64,000 nucleotides of DNA from positions 38 through 64,037 of the forward strand of contig JASEEY010000005.1 in assembly GCA_030018435.1 (NCBI GenBank), in the 5' to 3' direction. The position numbers and the translations under genes were made by a program. The notes beneath the pieces are model-generated. The model was not told the DNA's origin and searched no databases. It worked only from the letters and a program-made list of their open reading frames with translations. The stretch is from Methanocellales archaeon (GTDB lineage Archaea > Halobacteriota > UBA148 > JAUWXC01). Below are positions 15,141 through 62,559 of the stretch, piece after piece; positions within the stretch are counted from its first letter, which is position 1, and each line of letters opens with the position of its first letter.

Positions 15141-15509
15141 GTGTTATTACCTATAGACATGGAGTTAGTCTTTGCCAAACGAGGTGTAATAATGGAAGCA
15201 AGGGACATTTTACTTTCGGCCGTCATGGTGATTTCTGCATTCGTGCTCACATATAGGTGGCTTGGCCAATATGGTTTGGGAGATTCTGTCGTAGTTCTGG
15301 CAGCAATGGTGTTAGTGGGAGCACTGGCTGCGCTGCTCCTGAGCATCGATATCAGGCTGGGGATAGTGGAGAATAAGGTCGACGCCAAGGAAAGGTCCCT
15401 CAGGGTCAACATCCAAGGCGTGGAGGATAATGTAGACAGGAAACTGAATATGATGCTCAATAGGGTTAACGAGGCACTAGAATCCCTGACGCGACGACAA
15501 TATCGGTAG
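15141..15509 (+). CDS. Hypothetical protein, N-terminal TM and C-terminal coiled coil
   Basis: ORF only. Confidence 0.3.
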   Translation: MLLPIDMELVFAKRGVIMEARDILLSAVMVISAFVLTYRWLGQYGLGDSVVVLAAMVLVGALAALLLSIDIRLGIVENKVDAKERSLRVNIQGVEDNVDRKLNMMLNRVNEALESLTRRQYR

Positions 15510-15510
15510 C

Positions 15511-15798
15511 CTATTCAAATGCGGGATTTGTCATCTCCCTGATCTTGGTCATAATCGCTTTGGCATCGCGTAAATCCTTTACCCGCCTTATGTCTATTCG
15601 TCCGTTTCTGTAAAGCATCACAGTTCTGCCATCCATCTCGAATTTGGCCACGCCAAGACTTTCAGAGCATTTTAGATCGGTGACGTGCTTTTTTAGTAGC
15701 GAGCAGAGACGTCTCATAGAGAATGATCTACCAAAACTGCCCTCCGCTATAAATTCGTTTGGGTCTTCGGAGCATGGACGAGATATTTTAATCCCCAT
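15511..15798 (-). CDS. Hypothetical protein (95 aa)
   Basis: ORF only; no family recognised. Confidence 0.3.
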
Positions 15799-15903
15799 GA
15801 TGGCACCTTTGCTGCTGGGATATATGCGGTTGTAGTTATATGTAGTTTGGGAGAGGAAAAACGTAATAAAGACGTTAAAGACATATTGAATTTGGAGAAA
15901 TCG

Positions 15904-16917
15904 ATGGGCGTAGATCTCGGAGATCTGGTCGAAAAGCGGGAGATCTCCTTAAAGGATTTATTTGGAAAGACAATAGCCATAGATGCACACAATATTCTGT
16001 ATCAGTTTCTCAGCATCATTCGCCAGCCAGATGGCACGCCGTTAATGGATTCCAAGGGAAATATCACATCGCATCTTTCTGGGTTACTTTACAGGACGAC
16101 GAACCTTGTCGAAGAAGGCATCCGCCCCCTCTTCGTGTTCGATGGGGAGCCGCCTGAGTTCAAGGCTACTACGATTAAAGAGCGGAGGGAAATCAGGAGT
16201 ATAGCGGAAAAGCAGTGGATCGAAGCGAAGGAGAAAGGGGAAGCGGCTCTAAAGTATGCGCAGGCATCTGCAAGAGTGACCGGGCAAATAATCGAGGATG
16301 CCAAAGCGCTCCTGGGACATATGGGAATCCCGTGCGTTCAGGCACCATCAGAGGGAGAGGCACAAGCTGCGTTTATGGTCAGCAACGGTGATGCTGATGC
16401 TGTAGGCTCACAAGATTACGATGCGCTGTTGTTTGGCGCCCCCAGACATGTGAGAAATTTGACGATCACCGGGCGCAGGAAGCTGCCGGGAAAAAACGTC
16501 TATATAGATGTGAAACCGGAAATGATAGAACTGAAATCGATGCTTGATGCGCTGGAGATAACGAGAGAGCAGCTGGTCGATATTGCGATTTTAATAGGCA
16601 CGGATTACAACGAAGGCATCAAGGGCATAGGACCCAAGAGTGCGCTAAAACTAATCAAAAAGCACGGCTCAATAGAAGGAGCACTGGCCGAACTCGACAA
16701 GGACATCGAGAATTTTGATGCCATCAAGGATGTCTTCTTGGACCCTGACACTACATCTGACTATAAGATAACATGGCATGAGCCAAAAGAGGTTGATGTC
16801 GAAAGATTTCTATGTGACGAGCACGATTTCTCTGAGGACAGGGTGCGCAAGGCATTAGCACGATTAACGGAGGCATCTGGCAAGGGACAGAAGACCTTGG
16901 ACCAGTGGTTGGGATGA
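15904..16917 (+). CDS. fen: Flap endonuclease 1
   Basis: [31 protein letters not shown] is a classic FEN-1 N/I domain; start moved to the ATG at 15904. Confidence 0.9.
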
Positions 16918-17831
16918 GTCTGTCTGAGCTGGCAAAGGAGCATATAGATCACATCATGCGCCCGTATGGTCATACGGATGTTCTATTGTTTTACGGCGTG
17001 GTGGCGCCAAAATTGAGGAAATTTTTAGATAAGAAAGAGATCGCGAGCAAGGTCTGGCTGCCTTCCGGAAAAATCAAGTACTTCCTCAAGAGAGGTTCGA
17101 AGGAAAAGCCACTTTACATTGCTGAGTTGATAGATTCAGTCACGCCAGAGTTGCTGGAGGTTAGAAGTGAAAAGAAATTGTCTGATGCAAGAGGCCCACT
17201 AACGCCTGAACAAGAAAATGTCTGGACGTATTTCCCGCCGCGAAAATTGTCAGACTTCTTCTATGCCACAAACTCAGAAAGAGCGAATAGGCCCATAGAG
17301 CGTATCTTCTTTGATATAGACAGGGGCGAAGGTGTCTCGGCCAAAGATGCGCAAGAGGTGACAAAAGCCTTCGTGGAGGTAATCCAGGATGAAGAGCTAT
17401 CCTTTACATCGCCTCTCTGGGTATGCTGGACCGGGGCATCGTTCCATGTTTATTTGTTCCTGAAGAAAGAGATGCCACCCACATTCTACGAGAAGCATTT
17501 TAAGTTTACAAAGGACTCGATGTCAACCTTTACCGAAAAATGGGTTGCAGAAGTAGGTAAGAACGTCGCTGTAAAGGTCAAGGGTGGTCATGAGAAAAGT
17601 GCTAATGCGATCAACATCGACTCTTCGCAGACGCCATCCGGCAAGTTGTGCAGGGTTCCATTCTCATTGCACATGAAGGATGCAAGGACAGTCGATGGTG
17701 TCTCGATCCCGCTCGAACTGAAGATGTTAAACGAGCCGGGCCTGATAAGCGATCTGACATCATACTCCCCAGAAAGGGTCATAAAAGAGTTGGATGAACT
17801 AGCGAGAAGGTTGCCCGAAAAATTCAGATGA
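16914..17831 (+). CDS. Archaeo-eukaryotic primase (AEP) superfamily catalytic protein (PriS-like / LigD PolDom-like)
   Basis: AEP motif [10 protein letters not shown], motif [13 protein letters not shown], motif [22 protein letters not shown]-coupled to the fen stop. Confidence 0.55.
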
Positions 17832-18467
17832 TCACTTGTGAAATCCATATTTCCCTATCAGCGGGACGAACATCACGCCCCCCTTTCCATTCCTGATGAT
17901 GCCATTCTTCTTTTCGATTAAGTACAGTTCTTGGAAATATCGCCCGATGGGTATGACCATCTTTCCATTTGGTTTGAGTTGCTCCAGCAAGGGTGGCGGA
18001 GCGTCTGGTGCTGCGCATGCAACGCTAATTCGGTCATATGGAGCGTGCTTGGCATAACCCAACGTGCCGTCTCCCTTGATGATGGTCACGTTTTTATAGC
18101 CTGTGGCCTTGAGATTCTTCCGCGCCATTTCAGCTAACGACTTCCAGCGTTCTATGGCATAGACACGTCCTTTTCCGACCAATTCTGCCATGACAGCCGC
18201 ATGATAACCACATCCAGCGCCGACCTCAAGTACTTTCATGCCATCTTGTAAATCCAACAAATCGCACATCATTGCAACCATATGCGGCGCCGAAATAGTT
18301 TGGTTTTGCCCTATTGGAAGCGGACAGTCAGCGTATGCGTGACTTCTAAATTCCATCGGGACGAACTCATGTCTTGGCACCTTCCTCATCGCCTCCACCA
18401 CGCGCTCGCTTATGCCATATGACCTGAGTTTTTCTATCAATTTGTCCCTTTCGGTCTCGTATTTCAT
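17832..18467 (-). CDS. pcm: Protein-L-isoaspartate O-methyltransferase
   Basis: SAM-binding motif [13 protein letters not shown] and PIMT family sequence. Start trimmed to the ATG at 18467 because the longer ORF overlaps a tRNA. Confidence 0.85.
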
Positions 18468-18480
18468 GCCGCCTCGTAAA

Positions 18481-18593
18481 CGCCGCCAACAGGACTCGAA
18501 CCTGTGACAGCCTGGTTTCCGCGCAACTTTGATCAAACTTTCTCAAAGTTTGTGGTTAACAGCCAGGCACTCTACCAACTGAGTTATGGCGGC
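18481..18593 (-). tRNA. tRNA-Asn (anticodon GTT) with an approximately 40-nt intron at the canonical 37/38 position
   Basis: Manual fold: acceptor GCCGCCA/TGGCGGC, D-arm ACTC..GAGT, anticodon stem CCTGG/CCAGG with loop CTGTTAA, T-arm ACAGG TTCGAGT CCTGT. Confidence 0.6.
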
Positions 18594-21394: not shown

Positions 21395-23239
21395 ATGATG
21401 AAGAATATGACGATACCAAAGACGATTTGGCGGCTTCTAATTATAGCAATACTCATAGCGATTGTATCTGCTTTGGGGATATCGTTATTAACCGTAAGTG
21501 TTTCTGCGGATGGAGGGATGGGTGGACCCGATTGTGTTCACTGTCATGATATCAAAGGAGGAGATGAGGGGCATAAGGGACATGTGGACGTTTCCGCGAT
21601 GAATCAAACGAATTCAATTCACGTCAATTTAAACAGCGGTGTTAGTACGTCCTTAAATCCTGATAATAAGCGTTGCTGGGCATGTCACGGCAATGGCACT
21701 CAACCCTCTGGACACGGGCACCCATCTAATTACAAGAGCCCTTACATCTGCTTGGATTGCCACATTTCTGGTGGCTCTCAGGTTGAGAAGTATAATGCTC
21801 CAATCGTCTTTGAGCACTACAGGAATGGCATGGACATAAAGGCGGCAACAAATGCATCAACAGACGTATTGGCCTGTATATCCTGTCATCAAAACGTGAA
21901 TGAGATGGTCTTATCAAACTCTGACCCTGATTATGGTCACAACATAACTGATGTAGATAAAGACGGAGTCCAAGGTGGCCCTAACTGTACCTATCACTAT
22001 GGCAGAAAGAGAACTGATCTGCAAACTGGTACTCCTCCCTATACCAACTGTTCATACTGCCATCAGAACGCCTCGACGGCATTTCCCTTTGTCAATGCAG
22101 ACCTCAAGAACCTTGAGAATCACACGCCAAGGATTACGAATCCCAGTTGTGTTGATTCCAGATGTCATGATGTTGGCCGGATACACAATTCAACACTGAA
22201 GATGCCGACGACCGTGGATTATACGCTGTGTACTGACTGTCATGGAGGCAAGAGCAGACATAACGATACTCTGGATTGCACAAAATGTCACGGGAATGCC
22301 ACGAACAAGATTCATCCAATCTTATATCTTGCATCTGACGGTACTTTTTCCACTTCGAACGTTTCGGCAGTGAACTGTATATCATGTCATCAGGAAGGAT
22401 ATATGGGCCCGCAAGTTTCTGATCCACTTCACCACAGCGAAGTAAACACAGGACAGCGCTGGGGCGATTATTGGACAGACGATTTATCCGCATGCACATA
22501 CTGTCATGACGATACAAAGCATGACGCAATAGCATTGGGAAGACCGGCAAATTGGAAAGGAGACAACATCGTTGGCTCATCCGTCAACAACAGCTACTGG
22601 TGTGCAGGCTGTCATTATCAGGGATACCAAAGTGGTGCACACAGCTACGAAAATATGGTTAACACATTCAATGGCTCTGGCTTAAACATCCCGCCAGAAA
22701 TCACCAACGGCACGTATGCACCCAACGTAACAGGATTCTATGAACACGTATGCGCTAACTGGTCAGATGCGCTCTGCAAAGAATGTCATGGCAAGTTTGT
22801 CAGCGGTTATAATGTAACCGAACTCATGCACAACGTTTCAGACGGCAGCTGCGGTAACTGCCACTATGACTTTGCATATATGAATGATGCCCGAAATGCG
22901 CCCACGAAATACGTGAACAGCACGATGTTCAATGCGAGCGTGCATGGGCCATCGTCGGGAATAGGGTGCGTAGACTGCCATACTACCTCAAATCATCCTT
23001 ACCCGGAGTATTACTGGAAGTGGTGCGAGTGCTGCCATGCCGTACAATCTAACCCTGTCGATGATACGGACAGGCACAACGTCACATCTGATGTGCGGAA
23101 CAACATGGTTGACGGTGTTTCAGTCCTCAGCATAATCGACTGTAAGACATGCCACAATGCAACCTCTTACGAAAATGCAAAGACCAATTTTGGATTGTGC
23201 AGATGGTGCCATACATATCCTGATAAAACATATGAGTGA
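21395..23239 (+). CDS. Multiheme c-type cytochrome, about 16 CxxCH plus one CX4CH, N-terminal signal anchor
   Basis: Counted CxxCH: CVHCH, CWACH, CLDCH, CISCH, CSYCH, CTDCH, CTKCH, CISCH, CTYCH, CAGCH, CKECH, CGNCH, CVDCH, CECCH, CKTCH, CRWCH, plus CVDSRCH; hydrophobic N-terminus. Confidence 0.85.
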   Translation: MMKNMTIPKTIWRLLIIAILIAIVSALGISLLTVSVSADGGMGGPDCVHCHDIKGGDEGHKGHVDVSAMNQTNSIHVNLNSGVSTSLNPDNKRCWACHGNGTQPSGHGHPSNYKSPYICLDCHISGGSQVEKYNAPIVFEHYRNGMDIKAATNASTDVLACISCHQNVNEMVLSNSDPDYGHNITDVDKDGVQGGPNCTYHYGRKRTDLQTGTPPYTNCSYCHQNASTAFPFVNADLKNLENHTPRITNPSCVDSRCHDVGRIHNSTLKMPTTVDYTLCTDCHGGKSRHNDTLDCTKCHGNATNKIHPILYLASDGTFSTSNVSAVNCISCHQEGYMGPQVSDPLHHSEVNTGQRWGDYWTDDLSACTYCHDDTKHDAIALGRPANWKGDNIVGSSVNNSYWCAGCHYQGYQSGAHSYENMVNTFNGSGLNIPPEITNGTYAPNVTGFYEHVCANWSDALCKECHGKFVSGYNVTELMHNVSDGSCGNCHYDFAYMNDARNAPTKYVNSTMFNASVHGPSSGIGCVDCHTTSNHPYPEYYWKWCECCHAVQSNPVDDTDRHNVTSDVRNNMVDGVSVLSIIDCKTCHNATSYENAKTNFGLCRWCHTYPDKTYE

Positions 23240-23245
23240 TGAAAT

Positions 23246-23668
23246 ATGCTGTCAAGTAGAAGAAAAGCGGTCATAATCGGCATTGCGATGGTGATGGTTG
23301 CCACATCACTGACAGCATATGCCCTATTTTTCGGCGGTCACACGCTCTACACTAGGAAGGATTCTCCAGATTACGGCTCTGCAGAGTTCTGCGTTAAATG
23401 CCATCCGGATGTCGTCGCCACAGCGATGGTCGGCGCGCATCAAAACGCAGGATGCATCTGCCATGGCTATCGTCCAGAAGAGGGCATCAATTTAGCGCAC
23501 AACCTGACCAAGCAGATATACTGCACGAACTGCCATTCGAACTATGACGCAGAAGGAAACATCACCATTCATGAAGGGGTGAGCGGATTAAATCAGTCAG
23601 GGCATTATATTACGAACTATACCGCTACGCTTTACAATAATTCACAACAATTCTTCAGCGGTAGTTAA
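23246..23668 (+). CDS. Small membrane-anchored c-type cytochrome (2-3 heme sites)
   Basis: N-terminal TM; CVKCH, CTNCH and an atypical CICH. Confidence 0.6.
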   Translation: MLSSRRKAVIIGIAMVMVATSLTAYALFFGGHTLYTRKDSPDYGSAEFCVKCHPDVVATAMVGAHQNAGCICHGYRPEEGINLAHNLTKQIYCTNCHSNYDAEGNITIHEGVSGLNQSGHYITNYTATLYNNSQQFFSGS

Positions 23669-25050: not shown

Positions 25051-25356
25051 ATGCCTGCTACCGTATCTGTGCGATTGGACGATGAAATGATAAAGGATAT
25101 CGAGCTATTAAAGGAAGAGTCACAAGTGGACAGGTCTGAGATGGTGAGGAAACTATTGGACAGGGCATTAAAGCAAGCCAAGATCGAAAAAGCCATAGAA
25201 CTGCTCAGAAAGCATAAAATCTCAATTGGAAAAGCCTCTGAGTTAGCCGGGATGACTTTGTATGAAATGATCGAGCTGTGCAAGACGCGTGACATACATA
25301 TCGGGTACTCTATAGGGGACTTAAAAAAGGACTTGGATCAGTTTCCGATCAGATAA
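25051..25356 (+). CDS. UPF0175-family antitoxin (RHH-like N-terminus + UPF0175 domain)
   Basis: Sequence pattern ..IGKASELAGMTLYEMIELCKTRDI. Confidence 0.55.
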   Translation: MPATVSVRLDDEMIKDIELLKEESQVDRSEMVRKLLDRALKQAKIEKAIELLRKHKISIGKASELAGMTLYEMIELCKTRDIHIGYSIGDLKKDLDQFPIR

Positions 25357-25366
25357 GGTGTCTTAG

Positions 25367-25876
25367 TTGAGAGCAGTGTTGAATTCTACTCCGCTCATCT
25401 ATCTAGCCAAGATAAATCACTTAGACTTGTTAGGAAAAGTTTATGATCAAATCTACATCCCCACTCCTGTTTATGAAGAAACTGTCCAGAGGGGTCTGGA
25501 AAAGAAATTTTTGGATGCTGATATCATCAAGAATGCCGTTGACAGGGGAACCATTGAAGTTAGAGAGTTGACCTCGGAACAAAAGGCTGAAGCGAGGAGA
25601 CTAATCCAATTTGCAAATATAGGCGGAGGAGAGGCTGAAGCAATAGTGCTGGCAAAACATCTTAACATCGAATTGATGATAGATGATGTGGTTGCCCAGG
25701 GCGTTGCCAGAACTTTAGGATTAGATGCACACTGGACAACCAGTTTTATAATCAGACTGGTCAGCAAAAAGTTAATTTCTCGAAAAGAGGCCAGAAAAAT
25801 GATTGAAGATTTGGTGAGCAGTGGATACAGGATAAGTGAAGAAGTGCTCATCGAAATACTAAAAGTGTTGAGTTAA
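25367..25876 (+). CDS. DUF3368/COG2405 PIN-like toxin
   Basis: 169 aa; partner position downstream of the UPF0175 antitoxin; paralog of 28006-28503. Confidence 0.55.
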   Translation: MRAVLNSTPLIYLAKINHLDLLGKVYDQIYIPTPVYEETVQRGLEKKFLDADIIKNAVDRGTIEVRELTSEQKAEARRLIQFANIGGGEAEAIVLAKHLNIELMIDDVVAQGVARTLGLDAHWTTSFIIRLVSKKLISRKEARKMIEDLVSSGYRISEEVLIEILKVLS

Positions 25877-26475: not shown

Positions 26476-27336
26476 ATGACTTTAAGAGGATGCGCATCAG
26501 CCTGCGGCGCAGGCACAATCATAAACGCCATCGCAACGTGGAAAGGTTCAGCCTTTGCCATTGATCTGCGAACCACCGCCGAGGTCGAGTTAGGCGAGGA
26601 TATGAAGCGCATTCAAGGAGAGATTAAAGGCGGTGGCGATGCTACGCTGATAGAGCGCTGCGTGGAGTTGGTGCTGCAAAAGTTCGGTTATGCAGGCGGT
26701 GCGCACGTTAGAACGAGCAGCGAGATACCCATCGCCAGAGGGCTAAAGAGCAGTTCTGCAGCGGCAAATGCAACAGTCCTAGCAACGCTGAGTGCGCTGG
26801 ACAAGAAAATGGAGGCTTTGGAAGCAGTACGCTTGGGAGTTCATGCCGCTCTCGATGTAGGAGTGACGGTAACCGGCGCCTTCGACGATGCTGCAGCCTC
26901 TTTTTTAGGTGGCATCGTGGTCACCAATAACAAGACCATGCAACTCGTGAAGAGGGTTGAAAGAGACGAGGATGTGCTGATTCTGGTGCCCGAGGAGAAG
27001 GTATTCACCGCGGAGACAAACGTGGAAAAGATGAAGTTAATCGCCCCCTGGGTGGAGCTGGCATACGATTTAGCATTAGAAGACAGATTCGAAAAGGCGA
27101 TGACGTTAAATGGTATTTTGTATTGCGTCGCTCTGGAATTTGACCCATGCATCATCATCAAGGCATTAGAAGCGGGTGCAAGCGGTGCCAGTCTATCAGG
27201 AACGGGTCCAGCGTTTTGCGCTCTTGTGAAAAAGGATAGAATAAGCGCTGTGAAAGAAGCATGGAGCGACTTCAACGGAAAAATCATTAGGACGAAGATC
27301 AATAATGAAGGTGCAAGGGTGGAAAGATGTCGTTAA
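26476..27336 (+). CDS. aroK: Shikimate kinase, archaeal GHMP-kinase type
   Basis: 286 aa with GHMP kinase motifs; archaeal-type shikimate kinase. Confidence 0.8.
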   Translation: MTLRGCASACGAGTIINAIATWKGSAFAIDLRTTAEVELGEDMKRIQGEIKGGGDATLIERCVELVLQKFGYAGGAHVRTSSEIPIARGLKSSSAAANATVLATLSALDKKMEALEAVRLGVHAALDVGVTVTGAFDDAAASFLGGIVVTNNKTMQLVKRVERDEDVLILVPEEKVFTAETNVEKMKLIAPWVELAYDLALEDRFEKAMTLNGILYCVALEFDPCIIIKALEAGASGASLSGTGPAFCALVKKDRISAVKEAWSDFNGKIIRTKINNEGARVERCR

Positions 27337-27614
27337 AGGATGTTCGGGAGAAAATCCAGAATATCGATGACCAGATCGTAGAACTCATAGCTCAACGTAC
27401 TAATCTGGCGGAAGATGTGCTGGAGGAAAAGAAAAAGGAGGGCATAGGCATCGACGATGAGGAGCAGAGGGAGATCGTGCTCAACCGGATGGTGGAAGCG
27501 GCAACAGAGCGCAATCTTGACGCGGGTGCAGTAAAACAAATCTATGAAATACTCATAGAGATGAACGTTGAACGTCAGCGCGAGCTGAGCGGAAAAGGAA
27601 AGTTGCAGCCATAG
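27327..27614 (+). CDS. Chorismate mutase (AroQ class)
   Basis: 95 aa; LKDVREKIQNIDDQIVELIAQR is a typical AroQ helix 1. Confidence 0.8.
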   Translation: MSLKDVREKIQNIDDQIVELIAQRTNLAEDVLEEKKKEGIGIDDEEQREIVLNRMVEAATERNLDAGAVKQIYEILIEMNVERQRELSGKGKLQP

Positions 27615-27680: not shown

Positions 27681-28022
27681 ATGATTTGTAATGTGATGAA
27701 GATGGGCAACGTCCAGGTAAGAATATCTAATGAGATGTTAGGCGAGATAGACAGGCTGAGCAGGATGCTCGAAAGCTCAAGATCAGAAGTGATCAGAAAA
27801 GCCCTTGATGATGGCATAAGTCGCATAAAAATGGAGGCGACTCTGAGAGATTACATAGATAACAAGATAACGTTGTGCAAAGCAGCTGTACTGGCTGGAA
27901 CGTCTGTCATGGAGTTTGCAGAGTACGCTGCAGAAAAGGGCATCCCATTCATGAGATATGGGGCAGAGGAGGCTGAAGAGGATCTGTTAAGGTTGAGGAA
28001 ACGGCATGAAAGTGCTGATTGA
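27681..28022 (+). CDS. UPF0175-family antitoxin (second copy)
   Basis: RISNEMLGEIDRLSRM.. RHH-like then ..LCKAAVLAGTSVMEFAEYAAEKGIP. Confidence 0.55.
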   Translation: MICNVMKMGNVQVRISNEMLGEIDRLSRMLESSRSEVIRKALDDGISRIKMEATLRDYIDNKITLCKAAVLAGTSVMEFAEYAAEKGIPFMRYGAEEAEEDLLRLRKRHESAD

Positions 28023-28503
28023 CGCTTCTTCACTGATAGCGTTAACAAAGACAGGATCGCTTGACCTCATCAAGGACGTCTTCGGCAGAGTTTTTATAAC
28101 CAAAGAGATCGAGAAAGAGATCACATCTGGCACTTTAGCTGACGTTGCAATCCTGAAGGGGAAGATCAAAGACTGGATTGAGGTCATCGAATCTCCCAGT
28201 TCCAAAGAATATTACACGAAACTAAAAGGACTGGATGAGGGAGAGTGCAGCATCCTCGGATATGCAAAGGAAAATAAAGACGTTTTACTCATATTAGATG
28301 AGGTAGAGGGCAGAGCAGTCGCAGAAGCCGAAGGTTTTACTCACACCGGAACTCTTGGATTGATCGTCTATGCCTGTGAAAAACGCATAATATCAAAATC
28401 CAGGGCGATGGGAATAATCAAGAAGCTATCCAGAAGTGAGTTCAGAATGACCACTGAGCTATATGACTGGGCCTTGACCAAGATAGAGGCTGTCAAGAAG
28501 TGA
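28006..28503 (+). CDS. DUF3368/COG2405 PIN-like toxin (second copy)
   Basis: MKVLIDASSLIALTKTGSLDLI.. PIN-like N-terminus; overlaps the antitoxin stop. Confidence 0.55.
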   Translation: MKVLIDASSLIALTKTGSLDLIKDVFGRVFITKEIEKEITSGTLADVAILKGKIKDWIEVIESPSSKEYYTKLKGLDEGECSILGYAKENKDVLLILDEVEGRAVAEAEGFTHTGTLGLIVYACEKRIISKSRAMGIIKKLSRSEFRMTTELYDWALTKIEAVKK

Positions 28504-48049: not shown

Positions 48050-49261
48050 CTAAAAGCTGGCCAGTGTTTTCTGAAATTTAAAATCGTGTATGAGTTTTGC
48101 CTCTTTTTTCCATCTGCGCAACGGAGTTCTTATTCTTGTAGCGACATCGTTGAGCGCGGCATCAGCAGTCTCAAACCGCTTTGGCTCTTGCCTCATCGCG
48201 TCTCTGACCGCCTCCCTAATCACCCAGACACCCAGCGGCGCCCAATAGTCTGGGAGGATTTCCCGCACGATAAAAATCGATGCCTGCCTTTTGATATTCT
48301 CCAGATATTCAACAACGCCAAGACGCGCGGCATAGTATCCTCCAGCCAAAAGAGAATATGTCCTCTTGCCGCCATATCCCTCTCTATCGGCGCCGACCCA
48401 CGTTCCCTCACCCACCCATACAGACCTCGGCATCCATATCTCTATCAGTTCAAAGGAAAATGGACGAGGAAGCAAAAGTATCTCGAACCTATTGCCGAAT
48501 CTCTGTGTGCTGAAAAGCCGGATCTCATCTAATACGGAGTGGTCTTTCACCCTTGCGATTAATTCCTTGCCAACTATGTCGTCCGTGGCAGTAATTGCCC
48601 ACCTCGTTGGAACGAGTCTGCGATCTTTCTTCCGCCCCAACAGTCCGACGGAAAGGAGTCTGTTGATATGATAAACTGAGATATCGCTCTCGTACAACTC
48701 TGTAGTAGCATTTGCAGCCAAGACATCTTTATCAGAGACCAGATAGTCGACCTTTCGCGGAACGGATGGGTTTTCAGTTATGCTCATATCCTTGAGTGTG
48801 CCAGAAGGCCCCATTGGGCTTAAGATGCCGTCAAAGCGCAACTCCATCTTAGGCGGCTTGAGAAATTTGACCTCTGTGTCAACAGGCGCAGACGCCATCG
48901 CGAGCATTTGCGTTTTAATCAGAAGGCGATCACTCAGCACGCGTGGGCTTCTGACATTCAACCGAGTATTGGATCGAACGAGATTTGAGCGCAATCCAAT
49001 TACATCTTCTATCCCTTTGCCCAACCATTGGGCTGGGTCATCGTATATCCGTGCATCTTTGGCAGCGATCTCCGGAGGAACCAATGGACCTAATCTAACG
49101 TCCGGATACCCAACTCGCCCGACGAATACCGATGGAGGAGAGGCACCAAAGATGCTGTCACCTATTGAGGCACGTTTAATCGCGCAAAATTTTGCAAGTA
49201 TGGGGCAAAAAGGTCGCCCGCACAATCCCCTGCCCTTGCATATGACACACCGAGTTTCCAT
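48050..49261 (-). CDS. Nre-family (NreA-like) DNA repair protein
   Basis: N-terminal CxxCxGRGLCGRPFCP zinc motif at the trimmed start METRCVICKG, typical of archaeal Nre proteins. Confidence 0.55.
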   Translation of the reverse strand: METRCVICKGRGLCGRPFCPILAKFCAIKRASIGDSIFGASPPSVFVGRVGYPDVRLGPLVPPEIAAKDARIYDDPAQWLGKGIEDVIGLRSNLVRSNTRLNVRSPRVLSDRLLIKTQMLAMASAPVDTEVKFLKPPKMELRFDGILSPMGPSGTLKDMSITENPSVPRKVDYLVSDKDVLAANATTELYESDISVYHINRLLSVGLLGRKKDRRLVPTRWAITATDDIVGKELIARVKDHSVLDEIRLFSTQRFGNRFEILLLPRPFSFELIEIWMPRSVWVGEGTWVGADREGYGGKRTYSLLAGGYYAARLGVVEYLENIKRQASIFIVREILPDYWAPLGVWVIREAVRDAMRQEPKRFETADAALNDVATRIRTPLRRWKKEAKLIHDFKFQKTLASF

Positions 49262-49328
49262 ACATGAATTCGTTTGAATACGACAAGATTTAAGTTTTGT
49301 TAACGTCGTAACGTTAGCGAGTGAGAAT

Positions 49329-50114
49329 ATGGCTTTGTTAGAGATCAAGGACCTTCATGTGAAGGTAGACGGCAAGGAGATTTTGAGGGGGGTCAACTTG
49401 GAGATAGACAAGGGGGAAGTACACGTTCTTTTGGGCCCCAACGCATCCGGCAAGACGACCCTGGCCATGACGATAATTGGAATGCCCGCCTATAAGGTAT
49501 CAGAGGGCAAGATGCTTTTTGATGGAGAAGATCTTGCCAATTTGGATCCCACACAGCGCGCGAAAAAGGGGATAGGTTTCGTATTCCAGTTCCCGCCTGC
49601 AATCAGGGGAGTAAAACTCCGCGACATAATCAGGCTTTGCGGTGGGAAAGATGCCTGGGACCCGAGCAAGGAGCCCGAGGAAAAATTTGCCATCGAGATG
49701 CTTGAAAAGGTCGGACTTCCCTCCAATTTTAGGGAGAGAGATGTAAACGTTGGTTTTTCTGGGGGCGAGAAGAAAAGGTCTGAGCTGGCGCAAATTTTGG
49801 CAATGAAGCCACGTCTCATGGTTTTAGATGAGCCCGACTCCGGCGTGGATATCGATTCTCTTAAACTGATCGGAAAGCGGGTAGACGACTTTGTCAAGGA
49901 AACCGGGAGCTCACTGCTTCTGATTACCCATTACAGGCACATCCTGCAATACGTCGAGACTGGCTTTGCCCATGTAATGTGCGGGGGCAAAATAATCGTC
50001 ACAGGCGACCCAGAAGACATTTTATCGAGGATAGAGGAGGAAGGGTACTGCGCATATGTCGATGTCTGTCCGCCGGAGATAAAGAAAGACATGGAAAAAT
50101 TCATGCATGTCTGA
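49329..50114 (+). CDS. sufC: Fe-S cluster assembly ATPase SufC
   Basis: ABC ATPase Walker A GPNASGKTT and SGGEKKR signature. Confidence 0.9.
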   Translation: MALLEIKDLHVKVDGKEILRGVNLEIDKGEVHVLLGPNASGKTTLAMTIIGMPAYKVSEGKMLFDGEDLANLDPTQRAKKGIGFVFQFPPAIRGVKLRDIIRLCGGKDAWDPSKEPEEKFAIEMLEKVGLPSNFRERDVNVGFSGGEKKRSELAQILAMKPRLMVLDEPDSGVDIDSLKLIGKRVDDFVKETGSSLLLITHYRHILQYVETGFAHVMCGGKIIVTGDPEDILSRIEEEGYCAYVDVCPPEIKKDMEKFMHV

Positions 50115-50122
50115 GGGGGTAC

Positions 50123-51382
50123 ATGTTTCCAAAATGGTATGCTGACAAAAGAGGAAAGGCAAAAGAGCTTTTAAAGGAGGCGAAACCCGCCAAATATGGC
50201 CCGGATGTAGACCTGGGCGCTTTTAATTTGCAGGCACCTTCCCATGTGAAAATAAACGGACTGGCGGACCTTGAAAAAGATGTTAGAAGCGCTTCCAAGG
50301 TGGTGGGAACCAGGGATGACGAACAATACAGAAGTGGCACCTATTTTCAGTACGACAACGATGTGGTATACTTAAAGTACAGCGAGCAGTTGAAAGAACA
50401 CACCCCAAAAGGATTAATCGTTCTTAACACGGATGATGCAGTTCAAACGTATCCATGGCTGGAGAAGTACTGGTTCAAGGAATTGCCCATGGGACTGGAC
50501 AAATACACTACCTACGTAGCGGCAAACTCAGTTGGCGGAGCCTTCGTCTGGGTGCAGGAAGACGTCAGGATAGAGCATCCCATCCAAGCGTGTTTGTTTA
50601 TGGGAACCAATAGGATGGTCCAGACTCCCCACAATATCATCATCGCCGAGCCCCGCTCGAAGGTTCACCTGATAACCGGCTGCACCGTCCATCCCAAATG
50701 TGAGACGGCAGCGCACGTCGCTGCAACCGAGATTTATGTCAAGGAGGGGGCAGAAGTTACTTGGTCGATGATACACTCCTGGGGGGAGGGGTTTCACATA
50801 AGACCGAGGATGGGGGCCGTCGTCGAAGATGGGGCAACCCTCATGATAAATTATATCCTGTTATCACCGGTCAAATCCATCCAGATGTATCCCACTGTGG
50901 TCCTTAAAGGCAAAGGAGCAAGGGTGAACTTCAGAAATCTGATTTTCGGCAGGGGGAAATCGAACGTCGATGTCGGCAGTGGCGTCATTTTATCGGGTGA
51001 AGAAAGCAGGGGGGAAATCAACAGCAGAGCGGTCATAATGGACGAGGCGACAATAGATATGAGAGGTCTGTTGCGCGGAAATAAACCGAACACGAAAGGA
51101 CATCTCGAGTGCAGGGGATTGTTGTTGAGCGATAGGGCAAAGGCCAAGGCGCACCCGAGCCTGGATGCCAGAACAAATGAAGCTGACCTGACTCATGAAG
51201 CGGCGGTCGGGAAGATCGCTGAGGAGGAGCTATTTTATCTCATGACCAGGGGGTTGAGCAAGGATGAGGCGACTTCCCTGATAGCAAGAGGATTCCTCGA
51301 CACGGATATCCCCGGCCTGCCGCCAACACTTCAGGCGGAAATCGGCAGGATAGTCTCAATGACGACAAAGGAAGTTATGTAA
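50123..51382 (+). CDS. sufB: Fe-S cluster assembly protein SufB/SufD
   Basis: SufBD family; start trimmed to the ATG at 50123 after the sufC stop. Confidence 0.85.
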   Translation: MFPKWYADKRGKAKELLKEAKPAKYGPDVDLGAFNLQAPSHVKINGLADLEKDVRSASKVVGTRDDEQYRSGTYFQYDNDVVYLKYSEQLKEHTPKGLIVLNTDDAVQTYPWLEKYWFKELPMGLDKYTTYVAANSVGGAFVWVQEDVRIEHPIQACLFMGTNRMVQTPHNIIIAEPRSKVHLITGCTVHPKCETAAHVAATEIYVKEGAEVTWSMIHSWGEGFHIRPRMGAVVEDGATLMINYILLSPVKSIQMYPTVVLKGKGARVNFRNLIFGRGKSNVDVGSGVILSGEESRGEINSRAVIMDEATIDMRGLLRGNKPNTKGHLECRGLLLSDRAKAKAHPSLDARTNEADLTHEAAVGKIAEEELFYLMTRGLSKDEATSLIARGFLDTDIPGLPPTLQAEIGRIVSMTTKEVM

Positions 51383-52192
51383 ATAATGGTGTTGTGATTT
51401 TGGTTGAGCCGATTTTCCCAGGATGCCCACCGCATCGGCCCTGCACTGCTTGCAACGGGTTAAAAGCCGCATGTGCTTTTTAACCGCTAACCTGGCCCTG
51501 TCCATTTGCGCACAGGTCGGTCTCCTCTTTCCAGCAAACTCGCCCAAGGGGACCAGCGGCATGACGTTCATGATGTACGCGTATTTAGATGCCCATCGCG
51601 CTATCTTCTCGACCTCACGTTCGTTTATGCCCGGAATTAACACGGTGTTTATTTTTACGGTAATGCCCAGCTCGTGCGCGAGTCTAACGCCCAGTTGCTG
51701 ATTTTCAAGCAGCACATCAAAATCTTTCTTCCGTTGACCGTCAACAGTAATCCACTTGTAGATTTTTCTGGCAGGATTTACGTCCAGAGCATTAATCGTG
51801 ACGGTCAGGAAGTCCAGGCCCATTTCATGAAGCAACCCGACCTTGTCCGGCAGCAGAAGTCCGTTGGTGCTTAAACACGTTTTCAACCTGGGGAAGTGTT
51901 TCTTGACGAGTGTCAGCGTCTCAAACGTTTGGCGATTTGCCAGAGGCTCGCCCGGTCCTGCAACGGCTGCGATCTTGTTGCAGGGCTCTGCCCTGATGGC
52001 GCGTCTCACAACGGAGATTGCCTCTAAAGGGGGTATGACCTTCAGGGTTGCACCTGGCACACCGGACAGTCCATCGGTGCAAACGCCTGCCTCGCAGTAT
52101 CTGCACCTTATATTGCATTGGGGTGCGACCGGCAGATGTATCCTCCCAATGCGATAATGCGCCTCATCATCAAAACAGGGATGCTCTATCAT
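51356..52192 (-). CDS. NifB-family radical SAM protein
   Basis: HPCF..AHYRIGRIHLPVAPQCNIRCRYCE matches the NifB N-terminal radical-SAM signature. Confidence 0.65.
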   Translation of the reverse strand: MIEHPCFDDEAHYRIGRIHLPVAPQCNIRCRYCEAGVCTDGLSGVPGATLKVIPPLEAISVVRRAIRAEPCNKIAAVAGPGEPLANRQTFETLTLVKKHFPRLKTCLSTNGLLLPDKVGLLHEMGLDFLTVTINALDVNPARKIYKWITVDGQRKKDFDVLLENQQLGVRLAHELGITVKINTVLIPGINEREVEKIARWASKYAYIMNVMPLVPLGEFAGKRRPTCAQMDRARLAVKKHMRLLTRCKQCRADAVGILGKSAQPKSQHHYLHNFLCRH

Positions 52193-54607: not shown

Positions 54608-55805
54608 GCAACACCTCCTTCAACGCATTCCTACCTTCCTCAAGTAGCTTTTCGCGCTTGGGGTGGCTCTGATAGTTAGAATCGATGAATTTTCTGAGCA
54701 GTTCAAAGGGGTCCATTGTGTAGCTGGCAAAACCAACCTTTTCTCCTGCCTTCTCGGTCCAGTGCACATCATAATTGAATGCGCCTTTCAGCCTTTCAGC
54801 GATCTTATACTCGGCGACCTTGCCCCTCAGCCCTTCATCAATTTCTATCTCTAAACGGACCAACTTTTCCGTCACATCCGGTATGGTATCCAAAATCTTT
54901 TGGGTCGGGTCATCGTTTGCGGTCACTTCCACGTTAATCTTCAGCATGTCTCTTGTAGGCAACTCCACAAATCGCCATTTCTCCTGCTCGAGAGGATTGA
55001 CTACAATAAAACCCTTCTTGTCGTCTTTTTCTCCCCAGTCGATCCTATCGATGGCACCTGTGTATACAATCTCAGTTCCCTGAGCGTGCATCACCTGATG
55101 CAGGTGAATGTGTCCAAAAACCGCAAGGTCCACAGCAGGAACCATATCCTTTCTGAACGAGAACTCGCCTGGCAAGACCTCCGGATATGCGATTCTCTCT
55201 CCCAATCTCGCGCCTTCGATATAGTAATGAGCAAGCAGAAGTTTAAAATCCACGTTTAGCTCATCGGACCTACCGTGAATCCATTGCTTCAAAAATTCCT
55301 GACCCTGGGGGAAAAGTCGCTCTTGTGAGATTTCTCTGCCTGATTCGCCAACCAAGCCTGCGATATCTGCTGGATGCAGGTAGGGAACGATAATGCAGCC
55401 TACGACCTTGTCATCGATCTCAAAATTCTCCACCGCTGGCCGGCGGTACACGCTGACGTGAGGGTAGCCCCTGAAATCGTCGATGGAGGTGCCCCTGTTG
55501 CCGTGGGGCTGGTCGTGATTGCCCGCAAGTATCCAGACCTTGATATTTGCCTTCGCTAACGGCTCGATGACATCCCTTCTGACCAATTCGCGAAAGGTTG
55601 GACTGACATGCGTTCTGTCAAAAAGGTCGCCGAGGATGATGAAGAGTTTTGCATCGTTATTGATGGCAAACTGAGTTGCCCTAGCAAAATTGTCATGGAT
55701 GTCGAAAACCCTCTTTGAAAGACCCGTATCCGGGTCAATCTGGTACCCGAAATTAATGCCCTCGTGAACATCTCCTACGACGATGATTTCGTTCATTGTG
55801 GTCAC
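54597..55805 (-). CDS. mre11: Mre11 nuclease
   Basis: Phosphoesterase motifs GDVHEG, GDLFD, GNHD, GHIH; overlaps the rad50 start. Confidence 0.85.
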   Translation of the reverse strand: MTTMNEIIVVGDVHEGINFGYQIDPDTGLSKRVFDIHDNFARATQFAINNDAKLFIILGDLFDRTHVSPTFRELVRRDVIEPLAKANIKVWILAGNHDQPHGNRGTSIDDFRGYPHVSVYRRPAVENFEIDDKVVGCIIVPYLHPADIAGLVGESGREISQERLFPQGQEFLKQWIHGRSDELNVDFKLLLAHYYIEGARLGERIAYPEVLPGEFSFRKDMVPAVDLAVFGHIHLHQVMHAQGTEIVYTGAIDRIDWGEKDDKKGFIVVNPLEQEKWRFVELPTRDMLKINVEVTANDDPTQKILDTIPDVTEKLVRLEIEIDEGLRGKVAEYKIAERLKGAFNYDVHWTEKAGEKVGFASYTMDPFELLRKFIDSNYQSHPKREKLLEEGRNALKEVLHAE

Positions 55806-58192: not shown

Positions 58193-59289
58193 GCGCAGAA
58201 GCGAAAACGGAAGGAAAGGATGAACTGACAAAGAAAAAGCTGATTGACATCATAGGAGAATTTTACGGTCAGCTACAGAGCGAGAGAGTTCCTTACCTCA
58301 ATCTGCCGACCAGAACCAAGGCTAACATTGAATACAATGATGCGTCAGAGGTGTGGGTTTACGGCGACAGAGAGAGTGTGAGGAGTGCAAAAACCGTCAG
58401 GGGGGCATACCAGTTACTCAAAACCTCATATGTAGTGGATTTTCTGAACGCCCAGTTAGATCAGGCAAAATCTTCCACGTTGAGGGAGTTGTACTATATC
58501 TCCGAGAACTGGGACTTGGCAAAGTTTAGGGAACAGCAGGAAAGCGATAGGTTGATAGAAGACCTGGAAATCGTGAGTGAGCTACAAAGGGAGAACTTCC
58601 ATATCAGGCCGGAGGAGGATGGCGCCTCTGTTTTGGGTCCCATCAAGATCAAAGAGCAGACGAGAAGGGGCACAAAGATCATCCATTGCCAAGATGACGT
58701 TGGCGAAGGGGGGTACCAGATACCCAACAACGTCGATAACCTGGAGTTTTTGGAGCACGATGCAAAAATGATCATAGCGATAGAGACTGGTGGTATGAAG
58801 GATAGGCTGATTGAGAACGGCTTTGACGAAAAGTTTAACACGATCATAGTGCACCTGAAGGGTCAGCCGGCCAGAAGCACAAGGCGATTGCTCAAACGGA
58901 TGAACGAAGAGCTGAAGATACCCGTAGTGGTGTTCACCGATGGGGACCCGTGGTCGTATAGGATATTCGCTTCCGTCGCATATGGGGCGATAAAGAGCGC
59001 CCACCTATCAGAATACATGGCGACTCCTGCAGCACAGTTCATCGGCATTCGCCCCTCGGACATAGTCAACTATGAATTACCAACGGATAAGTTGTCTGAC
59101 CAGGACATAAGAGCTTTGCATTCGATGCTCTCTGATCCAAGATTCGAAAGTGAGTTCTGGCAGAGCGAAATCAATCTGCAACTTGAATTAAACAAGAAGA
59201 GCGAGCAACAGTCGTTAGCGAAGTACGGATTGGATTATGTGACGGATACATATCTGCCAGAACGGTTGAGTGAGATGGGTGTCATCTAA
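58189..59289 (+). CDS. top6A: DNA topoisomerase VI subunit A (Spo11 homolog)
   Basis: 366 aa; Toprim region IAIETGG; ATGA overlap with top6B. Confidence 0.9.
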
Positions 59290-62405: not shown

Positions 62406-62559
62406 TTTTGTTCTCCCTTTAAATCATTCACAATTCTATACGGACGCCTTGCACTTGGCGTCATGAAATCCTACTTTTAGGATTCCTTGAACGGGATTAT
62501 TTACTTTGTTAATATATAAGTTCTTTGCTATTATTGTTATGCCGTTCAGATGTGATCGT

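What the first reader, a model, noticed from the sequence alone, without database searches (positions are those of the whole stretch)
15904..17831. FEN1 translationally coupled (ATGA) to an AEP-family primase/polymerase
The downstream 305-aa protein has the three AEP catalytic motifs (DxD, SG/FH, and the SLH/R motif) and is PriS-sized or LigD-PolDom-sized. A flap endonuclease plus primase-polymerase operon is a compact Okazaki-fragment or gap-filling (NHEJ/MMEJ-like) module. Whether this is the replicative PriS or an accessory PolDom-type repair polymerase changes the interpretation.
Basis: partly seen in the sequence, partly recalled or inferred. Interest (0 to 1): 0.6.

Follow-up and report, generated by a model that had tools for sequence, protein, structure and literature searches.

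The report
FEN1 plus acquired LigD-like repair polymerase
A normal archaeal flap endonuclease gene is followed, with a 4-base overlap, by a recently inserted gene for a small LigD-type repair primase-polymerase from an unstudied archaeal family that elsewhere sits beside ligase, 3'-phosphoesterase and DNA glycosylase genes, so it is most likely a gap-filling repair enzyme and not the replication primase.

Summary
FEN1 (15904-16917) and a 305-aa AEP (16914-17831) overlap by ATGA, and the AEP has all three catalytic motifs.

The AEP is not PriS. A confident model (pLDDT 92) matches the Mycobacterium tuberculosis LigD polymerase domain best (E 4.5e-9, TM about 0.6). CAPP Prim-Pol (3e-5) and Prim-PolC (1e-4) follow. 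PriS structures reach only 6e-3 to 0.07. Pfam and NCBIfam LigD-pol models hit it only below their cut-offs.

It belongs to a small, sharply bounded, unannotated archaeal family (112 clusters at 50% identity, none longer than 355 aa), found in DPANN archaea, Methanobacterium and a few other lineages.

The fen linkage is lineage-specific. None of 80 related loci has FEN1 within 10 kb. A syntenic relative (FEN1 86% identical) has no AEP in the slot, so the gene was inserted between fen and pcm. It is nevertheless under purifying selection (dN/dS 0.11).

Elsewhere the family sits beside LigD-type 3'-phosphoesterase (12 loci), a dedicated ATP-dependent ligase subfamily, Fpg/Nei, EndoIII, UDG, DUF72 and UvrB. 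Ku occurs once.

Best reading: a Ku-independent gap-filling repair polymerase resembling mycobacterial Prim-PolC/LigC, here co-expressed with FEN1. Interest is moderate.

The parts
15799..15903 (+). Intergenic region upstream of fen. Likely promoter and 5' UTR of the fen-AEP bicistron, with TATA-like TTATAT near 15836-15841 and GGAG at 15894-15897, 7 nt before the ATG.
   Evidence: Read by eye. Inferred only; no archaeal promoter tool was available.
15904..16917 (+). Flap endonuclease 1 (FEN1), 337 aa. Housekeeping type, with a C-terminal PCNA-binding (PIP-like) motif QKTLDQWL.
   Evidence: TIGR03674 512 bits (cut-off 352). XPG_N, XPG_I and HhH domains. Orthologues 64-92% identical in Methanocellales, Methanosarcinales and Methanoperedens. 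The PIP motif was read by eye.
16914..16917 (+). ATGA: the AEP start codon overlaps the FEN1 stop codon by 4 bp.
   Evidence: The same junction occurs in the 89%-identical relative. This is a common overlap type, seen in 13 of 47 same-strand pairs in the window.
16914..17831 (+). Stand-alone 305-aa AEP primase-polymerase of the LigD-PolDom / Prim-PolC clade. It is a member of an unannotated archaeal family.
   Evidence: PF21686 26.8 bits (gathering score 27.4) over residues 22-283. TIGR02778 29.7 bits. AF2 model pLDDT 92.2. Foldseek best hits are Mtb LigD PolDom 2iru, 2r9l and 4mky at E 4.5e-9. 501 homologues were found and 112 clusters at 50% identity. dN/dS is 0.109.
17313..17321 (+). Motif I, D134-I-D136. 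These are the metal ligands and align to the LDLD motif of LigD PolDom.
   Evidence: Invariant in 41 sequences. Aligned by phmmer to 2iru and by hhalign to Tsukamurella LigD.
17439..17447 (+). Motif II, S176-F177-H178. It aligns to the GLH of SGSKGLH in LigD PolDom.
   Evidence: Invariant S176, F177 and H178. Alignments.
17619..17672 (+). Motif III, D236[17 protein letters not shown]253. It aligns to VDWSQNSASKTTVAPYSLR of LigD PolDom and contains the third metal-binding Asp and the SQ...K nucleotide-binding signature.
   Evidence: Invariant D236, S238, Q239, K244, R247, L252 and H253. hhalign.
17832..18536 (-). Convergent protein-L-isoaspartate O-methyltransferase gene (pcm). It marks the downstream edge of the variable slot into which the AEP was inserted.
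   Evidence: PCMT Pfam in the gene calls. In L087, fen is followed 38 bp later by this gene with no AEP. Other cargo occupies the slot in L088 and L089.

Best explanation
The 305-aa protein is an accessory, stand-alone primase-polymerase of the LigD polymerase-domain (NHEJ/Prim-PolC) branch of the AEP superfamily. It belongs to a compact, uncharacterised archaeal family. In this Methanocellales lineage the gene was inserted into the convergent fen/pcm intergenic slot. It is now translated from the fen transcript through the ATGA overlap.

Proposed mechanism (inferred): it fills short gaps left after damaged-base or abasic-site excision or at single-strand breaks. Where synthesis displaces the downstream strand, the co-expressed FEN1 removes the 5' flap so that a ligase can seal the nick.

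In other members of the family the same polymerase is encoded with a LigD-type 3'-phosphoesterase, a dedicated 3-domain ATP-dependent ligase and bifunctional glycosylases (Fpg/Nei, EndoIII). That gives a coherent pathway:
1. A glycosylase/lyase leaves a 3'-blocked one-nucleotide gap.
2. The phosphoesterase cleans the 3' end.
3. The AEP fills the gap.
4. The ligase seals it.

This is the archaeal counterpart of mycobacterial Prim-PolC/LigC excision repair. It is not Ku-dependent end joining and not replication priming.

Shown here: identity, fold, motifs, insertion history, purifying selection and neighbourhood statistics. Inferred: substrate, partners in this genome, and the FEN1 hand-off.
For: Fold and motifs:
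- AF2 model has pLDDT 92.2 and pTM 0.90.
- Foldseek against the PDB gives Mtb LigD PolDom E 4.5e-9 (TM 0.59-0.63), P. aeruginosa LigD pol 2e-5, CAPP Prim-Pol 3e-5 and Prim-PolC 1e-4. Human PriS reaches 6e-3 and Pfu PriS 0.07.
- Viral primases are weaker, with best E 2.7e-4 and TM 0.3-0.4.
- PF21686 is the only Pfam hit and is hit by 16 of 41 family members.
- hhalign is colinear with a LigD PolDom and aligns DxD, H and the DxSQ...K...S-L-(R/H) motif.

Accessory status:
- L087 has the same synteny, with FEN1 86% identical, but no AEP.
- The slot holds unrelated cargo in L088 and L089.
- DPANN lineages that carry the family have canonical or fused PriS/PriL (PMC7414124).
- The gene is functional: dN/dS is 0.109, against 0.111 for FEN1.

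Neighbourhood, in 80 genome loci:
- PE domain in 12 loci, often overlapping or within 35 bp of the AEP.
- ATP-dependent ligase in 19 loci, Fpg/Nei in 15, UDG4 in 16, DUF72 in 15, EndoIII in 9, UvrB in 2 and Ku in 1.
- L064 has a single-strand operon DUF72-PE-AEP-Fpg-ligase.
- AEP-adjacent ligases from Methanobacterium, a Hadarchaeota MAG and L064 are 50-60% identical to each other. They are only about 30% identical to the second Methanobacterium ligase.
- Repair genes are 7.7-fold denser within 3 kb of the AEP than at 3-10 kb in 65 non-Methanobacterium loci (p = 1.6e-7).

Precedent: Prim-PolC/LigC fill 1-3-nt 5'-phosphorylated gaps in BER. Their operons contain FPG and lie near UvrB (PMC5663958).
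Against: - No ligase, PE, Ku or glycosylase lies next to the AEP in this window, so the partners in this genome are unknown.
- About half of the related loci show no repair neighbour at all.
- The neighbour families used for the enrichment test were chosen after seeing them near the AEP, and the loci are not phylogenetically independent.
- The lysines of the 5'-phosphate pocket of LigD PolDom (Mtb K16, K26) and R53 are not obviously conserved in the low-confidence N-terminal alignment. Gap or 5'-phosphate recognition may therefore differ.
- The fen adjacency is young and could be only a convenient expression site.
- No biochemical data exist for any member.
Confidence: 0.6

Rival explanations
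1. It is the polymerase of a Ku-dependent archaeo-prokaryotic NHEJ system like that of Methanocella paludicola (Ku, Pol, PE and Lig as separate genes). Ku, PE and ligase would be encoded elsewhere in the genome.
For: The best structural match is the NHEJ PolDom of LigD. PE domains are adjacent in 12 loci. One Aenigmatarchaeota locus (L009) carries PE-AEP plus a Ku and LigD-type ligase operon 5.3 kb away. The host order, Methanocellales, contains the one archaeon with a characterised NHEJ system (PMC4797286).
Against: Ku was detected in only 1 of 80 loci, although a Ku HMM found that one at E 2e-51. The usual partner ligase is a 3-domain Lig1-like enzyme, not the 2-domain LigD/LigC type. Recurrent partners are BER glycosylases. 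Neither phmmer nor the family profile hits the solved Mpa Pol sequence at E<=10 in the PDB, so this is not the Mpa-type NHEJ polymerase.
Confidence: 0.2
2. It is a damage-tolerance primase (PrimPol-like repriming or translesion synthesis) acting at stalled forks. Co-expressed FEN1 would process the resulting primers or flaps.
For: It has the AEP fold with an intact triad. AEPs of several clades reprime or bypass lesions (PMC4538821). Association with the lagging-strand enzyme FEN1 here and with a Lig1-like ligase elsewhere would fit primer or flap processing.
Against: There is no zinc-finger, PriL-like or helicase module, which de novo priming Prim-Pols normally need. All family members are single-domain and no longer than 355 aa. 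The closest folds are the gap-filling and end-joining enzymes. The PE and glycosylase neighbours point to excision repair.
Confidence: 0.12
3. It is the replicative primase catalytic subunit (PriS), forming an Okazaki-fragment module with FEN1.
For: It is PriS-sized with an AEP triad and is adjacent to FEN1. One of 41 family members gives a weak PF01896 hit at E 3e-4.
Against: PriS structures match only at E 6e-3 to 0.2. The gene is absent from a closely related syntenic genome. Its distribution is patchy, and the DPANN lineages that carry it have their own PriS/PriL. No PriL is nearby, and no Pfam PriS or PriL family was found among the window ORFs tested.
Confidence: 0.03
4. It is a remnant of a mobile element's replication primase, carried into the fen/pcm slot with no host function.
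For: The slot is variable among relatives: Fic in L089 and an unknown ORF in L088. Family distribution is patchy and suggests horizontal transfer. A 'phage metallopeptidase'-family gene neighbours it in 7 Woese-/Pacearchaeota loci.
Against: No integrase, helicase or repeats accompany it here. dN/dS is 0.11, equal to FEN1. GC and GC3 are within one SD of the window genes' mean, and codon-usage distance is unexceptional (rank 33 of 46). Viral structural matches are weak. The family sits in chromosomal repair-gene contexts.
Confidence: 0.05

Closest known systems
LigD polymerase domain (PolDom; NHEJ AEP), e.g. M. tuberculosis LigD 2iru/2r9l/4mky and P. aeruginosa 2fao
   Same: It is the best structural match, at E 4.5e-9 and TM about 0.6. 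The domain size is the same. The alignment is colinear, with the same DxD, H and DxSQ...K...S-L-(R/H) catalytic and nucleotide-binding motifs. Family members are frequently adjacent to the LigD-type 3'-phosphoesterase.
   Different: Identity is only 16-17%. Scores fall below the Pfam and NCBIfam family cut-offs. It is never fused to ligase or PE domains. Ku is almost never nearby. The 5'-phosphate-pocket lysines and R53 are not evidently conserved. The partner ligase is a 3-domain Lig1-like enzyme.
Mycobacterial Prim-PolC with LigC (excision-repair gap filling; PDB 5op0, 6sa0)
   Same: Both are stand-alone PolDom-like AEPs (Foldseek E 1e-4, TM about 0.5). Both are genomically linked to an ATP-dependent ligase and Fpg, and lie near UvrB (PMC5663958). 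Both contexts are Ku-independent.
   Different: It is archaeal and a distinct sequence family. The ligase partner is of a different type. Additional partners are PE, DUF72, EndoIII and, in this genome, FEN1. It is not known whether its C-terminal helical tail (residues about 269-305) plays the ligase-binding role of the Prim-PolC C-terminus.
Methanocella paludicola AP-NHEJ Pol (Mpa Pol) with Ku, PE and Lig
   Same: Both are archaeal stand-alone PolDom-type enzymes encoded apart from ligase and PE, in the same host order. Strand displacement by such polymerases creates flaps that need nuclease remediation (PMC4797286).
   Different: Mpa Pol is reported as strictly conserved with bacterial PolDom. 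The present family is too divergent for phmmer or its own profile to reach any solved PolDom other than a marginal 2iru hit. In the window the operon partner is FEN1 (a 5'-flap nuclease), not PE (3' resection). No Ku is present.
Archaeal/eukaryotic PriS
   Same: Same AEP superfamily fold and catalytic triad.
   Different: Structural match is weak. There is no PriL partner or zinc motif. The gene is accessory and patchy.

Membership tests
AEP superfamily (primase-polymerases) | AEP catalytic fold with motif I DxD, motif II (s)xH and a third acidic residue in motif III. | tested here: met
   A confident model matches AEP structures only. D134/D136, H178 and D236 are invariant in 41 homologues.
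LigD PolDom / NHEJ-type AEP (Pfam PF21686, TIGR02778) | Score at or above the curated family thresholds. | tested here: not met
   PF21686 scores 26.8 bits against a gathering score of 27.4. TIGR02778 scores 29.7 against 214.7. Only 16 of 41 family members reach E<=0.01. The family profile retrieves no LigD protein among 1.84 billion representatives.
LigD PolDom / NHEJ-type AEP | PolDom-specific motif III signature (D-x-S-Q-N...K...P-Y-S-x-R) and overall colinearity. | tested here: met
   hhalign aligns [19 protein letters not shown] with VDWSQNSASKTTVAPYSLR across 225 colinear columns. Foldseek gives E 4.5e-9.
LigD PolDom / NHEJ-type AEP | 5'-phosphate-binding pocket (Mtb N13, K16, K26) and the strand-displacement arginine (R53). 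| tested here: inconclusive
   In the hhalign alignment the equivalents are not Lys or Arg: V47 aligns with R53, although K46 aligns with K52. The N-terminal alignment confidence is low. Other invariant basic residues (K46, R60, R84, R110, K111, R130) could substitute.
AP-NHEJ system | Genomic or operonic association with Ku. | tested here: not met
   A Ku HMM finds Ku in 1 of 80 related loci (L009) and none in the window. The rest of the host genome could not be searched.
Prim-PolC/LigC-type excision repair | Stand-alone PolDom-like AEP operonic with an ATP-dependent ligase and linked to BER glycosylases. | tested here: met
   Met at family level. A ligase lies directly downstream in Methanobacterium, Hadarchaeota and L064. 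Fpg, UDG4, EndoIII and UvrB are linked. Not met in the window itself, where the only linked repair gene is fen.
Prim-PolC/LigC-type excision repair | Preferential binding and filling of 1-3-nt 5'-phosphorylated gaps, and preference for rNTPs. | not testable with these tools
   Requires biochemistry.
Replicative PriS | PF01896 membership, a PriL partner, and universal single-copy presence. | tested here: not met
   The window protein has no PF01896 hit. PriS folds match only at E>=6e-3. The gene is absent from syntenic relative L087. No PriL was found among the window ORFs.
Archaeal FEN1 (upstream gene) | TIGR03674 equivalog above cut-off, XPG_N and XPG_I domains, and a C-terminal PIP motif. 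| tested here: met
   512 bits against a cut-off of 352. Domains. QKTLDQWL at the C-terminus, read by eye.

The most novel reading that the evidence does not exclude
The family may define a previously undescribed, Ku-independent 'split LigD-like' excision and single-strand-break repair system of archaea. Its parts would be a PolDom-like AEP, a LigD-type 3'-phosphoesterase, a dedicated Lig1-like ligase subfamily and DUF72, operating downstream of Fpg/Nei, EndoIII and UDG. It appears to be spread by horizontal transfer and is retained even in sub-megabase DPANN genomes. In the window lineage the polymerase has been rewired to FEN1, giving a long-patch variant: strand-displacing AEP synthesis followed by 5'-flap cleavage.
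Probability: 0.4. Interest if true: 0.65.

Novelty: new variant of a known kind. Interest (0 to 1): 0.5.

Why it matters
Archaeal base-excision and single-strand-break repair lacks a clearly assigned gap-filling polymerase in many lineages, and NHEJ is thought to be rare in archaea. A conserved PolDom-like family with its own ligase, 3'-phosphoesterase and glycosylase partners would provide that missing polymerase for DPANN archaea and some methanogens. It would also extend the Prim-PolC/LigC paradigm beyond Actinobacteria.

The family offers compact, testable operons for reconstitution, such as DUF72-PE-AEP-Fpg-Lig in L064 and fen-AEP here. It also gives DUF72 a candidate repair context.

For genome annotation, about 500 proteins (clusters at 90% identity) now labelled 'hypothetical protein' can be named LigD-PolDom-like primase-polymerases.

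Tried and rejected
- **PriS identity.** Rejected on fold ranking, on the absence of the gene from a syntenic relative, and on the lack of a PriS Pfam hit.
- **Conserved fen-AEP module.** tblastn of FEN1 against 80 related loci gave 0 hits.
- **Direct sequence link to solved structures.** phmmer gave only a marginal 2iru hit at E 0.47. The family profile gave nothing relevant.
- **Family fusions or bacterial members.** A profile search of 1.84 billion representatives returned only 112 clusters, all no longer than 355 aa and none a LigD.
- **Degenerate AEP in L088.** The 251-aa ORF in the fen/pcm slot of L088 gave no blastp or HMM similarity.
- **Compositional evidence of recent transfer.** AEP GC is 0.467, against 0.480 +/- 0.029 for window genes. 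GC3 and codon usage are unremarkable.
- **Viral or MGE origin.** BFVD matches are weak.
- **Literature.** Searches found no description of this archaeal family.
- **Not attempted.** I did not search for the partner ligase or PE elsewhere in the host MAG, because no whole-genome search of that assembly was possible.
Full report
**Observation**

The region contains two co-oriented genes.
- 15904-16917 (+) encodes a 337-aa flap endonuclease. It scores 512 bits on the archaeal FEN1 equivalog model TIGR03674 (cut-off 352) and has XPG_N, XPG_I and HhH domains.
- 16914-17831 (+) encodes a 305-aa protein. Its ATG overlaps the FEN1 TGA in the tetranucleotide ATGA at 16914-16917.
- Homologues start at the same 'MSLxxLAKK', so ATG 16914 is the true start rather than GTG 16905.

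The overlap is real but ordinary. 13 of 47 same-strand neighbour pairs in this window overlap by 4 bp.

**What the downstream protein is**

- Sequence models recognise it only weakly, and only as a LigD polymerase domain. PF21686 scores 26.8 bits, just under its 27.4 gathering score, but covers residues 22-283. TIGR02778 scores 29.7 bits.
- An AlphaFold2 model built on 41 homologues is confident, with pLDDT 92.2 and pTM 0.90.
- Foldseek against the PDB ranks the matches as follows:
  - M. tuberculosis LigD polymerase domain first (2iru, 2r9l, 4mky; E 4.5e-9; TM 0.59-0.63; 16-17% identity);
  - P. aeruginosa LigD pol, 2e-5;
  - CRISPR-associated Prim-Pol, 3e-5;
  - M. smegmatis Prim-PolC, 1e-4;
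  - human PriS, 6e-3;
  - Pyrococcus PriS, 0.07.
- Viral primases match poorly.
- hhalign against a Mycobacteriales LigD PolDom, taken from a Tsukamurella plasmid record, is colinear over 225 columns. It aligns FDIDRG with LDLDPG, SFHVY with GLHVY, and [19 protein letters not shown] with VDWSQNSASKTTVAPYSLR.

The protein is therefore a PolDom-type AEP, not PriS. The lysines of the PolDom 5'-phosphate pocket and R53 are not evidently conserved in that alignment, but the N-terminal part of the alignment has low confidence.

**The family**

- The identical protein is annotated 'hypothetical protein QMC78_03010 [Methanocellales archaeon]'.
- There are about 500 homologues (clusters at 90% identity), 45-57% identical and 290-320 aa long, nearly all unnamed.
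- Scanning one genome per GTDB species gave 80 loci. They come from Micr-, Aenigmat-, Woese-, Pace-, Nano-, Alti- and Iainarchaeota, Methanobacterium, Hadarchaeota, Hydrothermarchaeota, Bathyarchaeia and one Methanosarcinales MAG.
- A full HMMER scan of 1.84 billion representative proteins with the family profile found only 112 clusters. All are no longer than 355 aa, and none is fused to ligase or PE or belongs to bacterial LigD.

The family is thus small, discrete and always stand-alone.

**Is the fen linkage conserved?**

It is not.
- FEN1 is absent within 10 kb in 80 of 80 related loci.
- Only the 89%-identical relative keeps fen-AEP, with the same junction and the same flanks.
- The next relative, L087 (FEN1 86% identical), has the same gene order: CBS, PRA-PH, HrcA-like, NOG1, SPP, AF_1457, fen, convergent pcm, EPSP synthase, chorismate synthase. 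It has no AEP, and fen is followed 38 bp later by pcm.
- More distant relatives carry an unrelated 251-aa ORF or a Fic gene in that slot.

The AEP is therefore a lineage-specific insertion into a variable slot. The 'GGATGA' at the fen 3' end pre-exists in the AEP-less genome.

The inserted gene is maintained. dN/dS between the two AEP-bearing genomes is 0.109, the same as FEN1 at 0.111. Its composition is not anomalous.

**What the family is linked to elsewhere**

I clustered neighbouring ORFs and ran targeted HMM/phmmer searches, then confirmed the families with Pfam.

| Neighbour | Loci out of 80 | Notes |
|---|---|---|
| LigD-type 3'-phosphoesterase (PF13298) | 12 | Several DPANN phyla; often overlapping or within 35 bp of the AEP |
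| ATP-dependent DNA ligase | 19 | Directly downstream in Methanobacterium, a Hadarchaeota MAG and L064 |
| Fpg/Nei | 15 | |
| UDG family 4 | 16 | |
| DUF72 | 15 | |
| EndoIII | 9 | |
| UvrB | 2 | |
| Cas4-like nuclease | 1 | |
| Ku | 1 | L009, where a Ku and LigD-type ligase operon lies 5.3 kb from PE-AEP |

- L064 carries a compact same-strand operon: DUF72-PE-AEP-Fpg-ligase.
- Methanobacterium has two 3-domain ligases within 7 kb. The AEP-adjacent one is 50-60% identical to the AEP-adjacent ligases of Hadarchaeota and L064, but only about 30% identical to the second Methanobacterium ligase. A dedicated ligase subfamily therefore travels with the AEP.
- In 65 non-Methanobacterium loci these repair families are 7.7-fold denser within 3 kb of the AEP than at 3-10 kb: 27 hits in 331 kb against 6 in 567 kb (p = 1.6e-7).
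- Two caveats apply. The families were chosen after inspection, and the loci are not independent.

**Mechanism**

The recurrent partner set gives a coherent excision-repair route.
1. A bifunctional glycosylase (Fpg/Nei or EndoIII) leaves a one-nucleotide gap with a blocked 3' end.
2. The PE domain, a 3'-phosphatase/phosphodiesterase, restores a 3'-OH.
3. The PolDom-like AEP fills the gap.
4. The dedicated ligase seals it.

This parallels the mycobacterial Prim-PolC/LigC pathway. That pathway fills 1-3-nt 5'-phosphorylated gaps, and its operons contain FPG and lie near UvrB (PMC5663958).

PolDom-type enzymes strand-displace (PMC4797286). In the window lineage the co-expressed FEN1 could remove the resulting 5' flap. 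This last step, and the identity of partners in this genome, are inferred.

The window contains no ligase, PE or Ku and no PriS or PriL. The rest of the genome could not be searched.

**Rivals**

- **Ku-dependent NHEJ** remains possible (about 0.2) because of the fold match, the PE linkage and L009. The near-absence of Ku and the Lig1-like partner argue against it.
- **A repriming or translesion role** (about 0.1) is disfavoured by the lack of any zinc-finger, PriL or helicase module.
- **Replicative PriS and an inert mobile-element remnant** are effectively excluded. The grounds are fold ranking, accessory distribution, the presence of canonical or fused PriS/PriL in DPANN (PMC7414124), and purifying selection.

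**Novelty and verdict**

I found no paper describing this family. It falls below the curated thresholds of the LigD-pol models and is annotated as hypothetical. It is best filed as a new, divergent variant of the LigD-PolDom/Prim-PolC kind with a distinct partner set, not as a categorically new system.

The PriS-versus-PolDom question resolves to PolDom. The 'FEN1 + primase module' is a recent, lineage-specific arrangement rather than a conserved system. Interest is moderate (0.5). It would be higher if the family-level split-LigD excision-repair system is borne out.

Noticed in passing
window 48050-49348 (-): A full-length archaeal Nre protein (Nre_N 348 bits, Nre_C 138 bits). Nre proteins are PCNA-associated DNA repair factors of poorly understood function. 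It lies 30 kb from the fen-AEP pair.
   Followed up: partly
window 52193-55805 (-) and 56321-59289 (+): A Rad50-like ATPase (804 aa) overlaps an Mre11-like phosphoesterase (402 aa). Immediately next to them, on the other strand, are genes that by eye look like topoisomerase VI B and A. No HerA or NurA is adjacent; a radical-SAM gene (51356-52192) follows rad50.
   Followed up: partly
window 21395-23668, 60160-60981, 61869-63939: Several large proteins are packed with CxxCH motifs (multihaem c-type cytochromes) in a MAG labelled Methanocellales. The orthologous gene in L087 has weak MtrC/MtrF-type Pfam hits. The closest FEN1 relatives include Methanoperedens, so the taxonomic label or the physiology may deserve a look.
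   Followed up: no
window 25051-25876 and 27681-28503 (+): Two small antitoxin-like plus PIN-like gene pairs, identified by eye, lie beside the shikimate kinase and chorismate mutase genes (26476-27614). They sit within an otherwise contiguous aromatic amino-acid biosynthesis cluster running from about 18980 to 40651.
   Followed up: no
L087 6015-6051; L088 6333-7088; L089 6078-6584: The convergent fen/pcm intergenic slot is variable among relatives. It is empty in L087, holds an unknown 251-aa ORF with no Pfam hit in L088, and holds a Fic-domain gene in L089. It behaves as a small cargo-insertion hotspot.
   Followed up: partly
L008, L012, L021, L023, L027-L029, L032, L033, L035, L042 (Methanobacterium), about +0 to +7 kb from the AEP: A conserved Methanobacterium island: AEP, ligase A, two ATP-cone proteins and DUF72 on one strand, UDG4 and Fpg/Nei on the opposite strand, then a second 3-domain ligase B at about +6 kb. 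Ligases A and B are only about 31% identical.
   Followed up: partly
L064 5031-10364 (+): A tight same-strand operon of DUF72 (with a 200-aa N-terminal extension), PE, AEP, Fpg/Nei and a 3-domain ligase, in an unclassified GC-rich archaeal MAG. It is the most complete version of the putative repair system and gives DUF72 a repair context.
   Followed up: partly
L039, L041, L046, L047, L050, L051, L061 (Woese-/Pacearchaeota), 0-2.8 kb downstream of the AEP: A 129-aa HExxH protein matching Pfam 'PhageMetallopep' (76 bits) recurs next to the AEP. A related 129-aa cluster (c31) occurs in 4 more Woesearchaeota loci. It could be a SprT/Wss1-like protease for DNA-protein crosslinks, but this is speculation.
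   Followed up: no
window 17715-17831 (AEP residues about 269-305): The family has a conserved helical C-terminal tail ending in 'LAKRLPxxF' (L293 and P301 nearly invariant). It has no counterpart in the LigD PolDom alignment. It is a candidate partner-binding element for ligase or PCNA and is unexplained.
   Followed up: no
window 15141-15509 (+) and 15511-15798 (-): Two small conserved genes lie just upstream of fen. One is of the AF_1457 family. The other is a 95-aa ORF with no Pfam hit. The AF_1457-family gene is syntenic with fen in all Methanocellales-like relatives examined.
   Followed up: no
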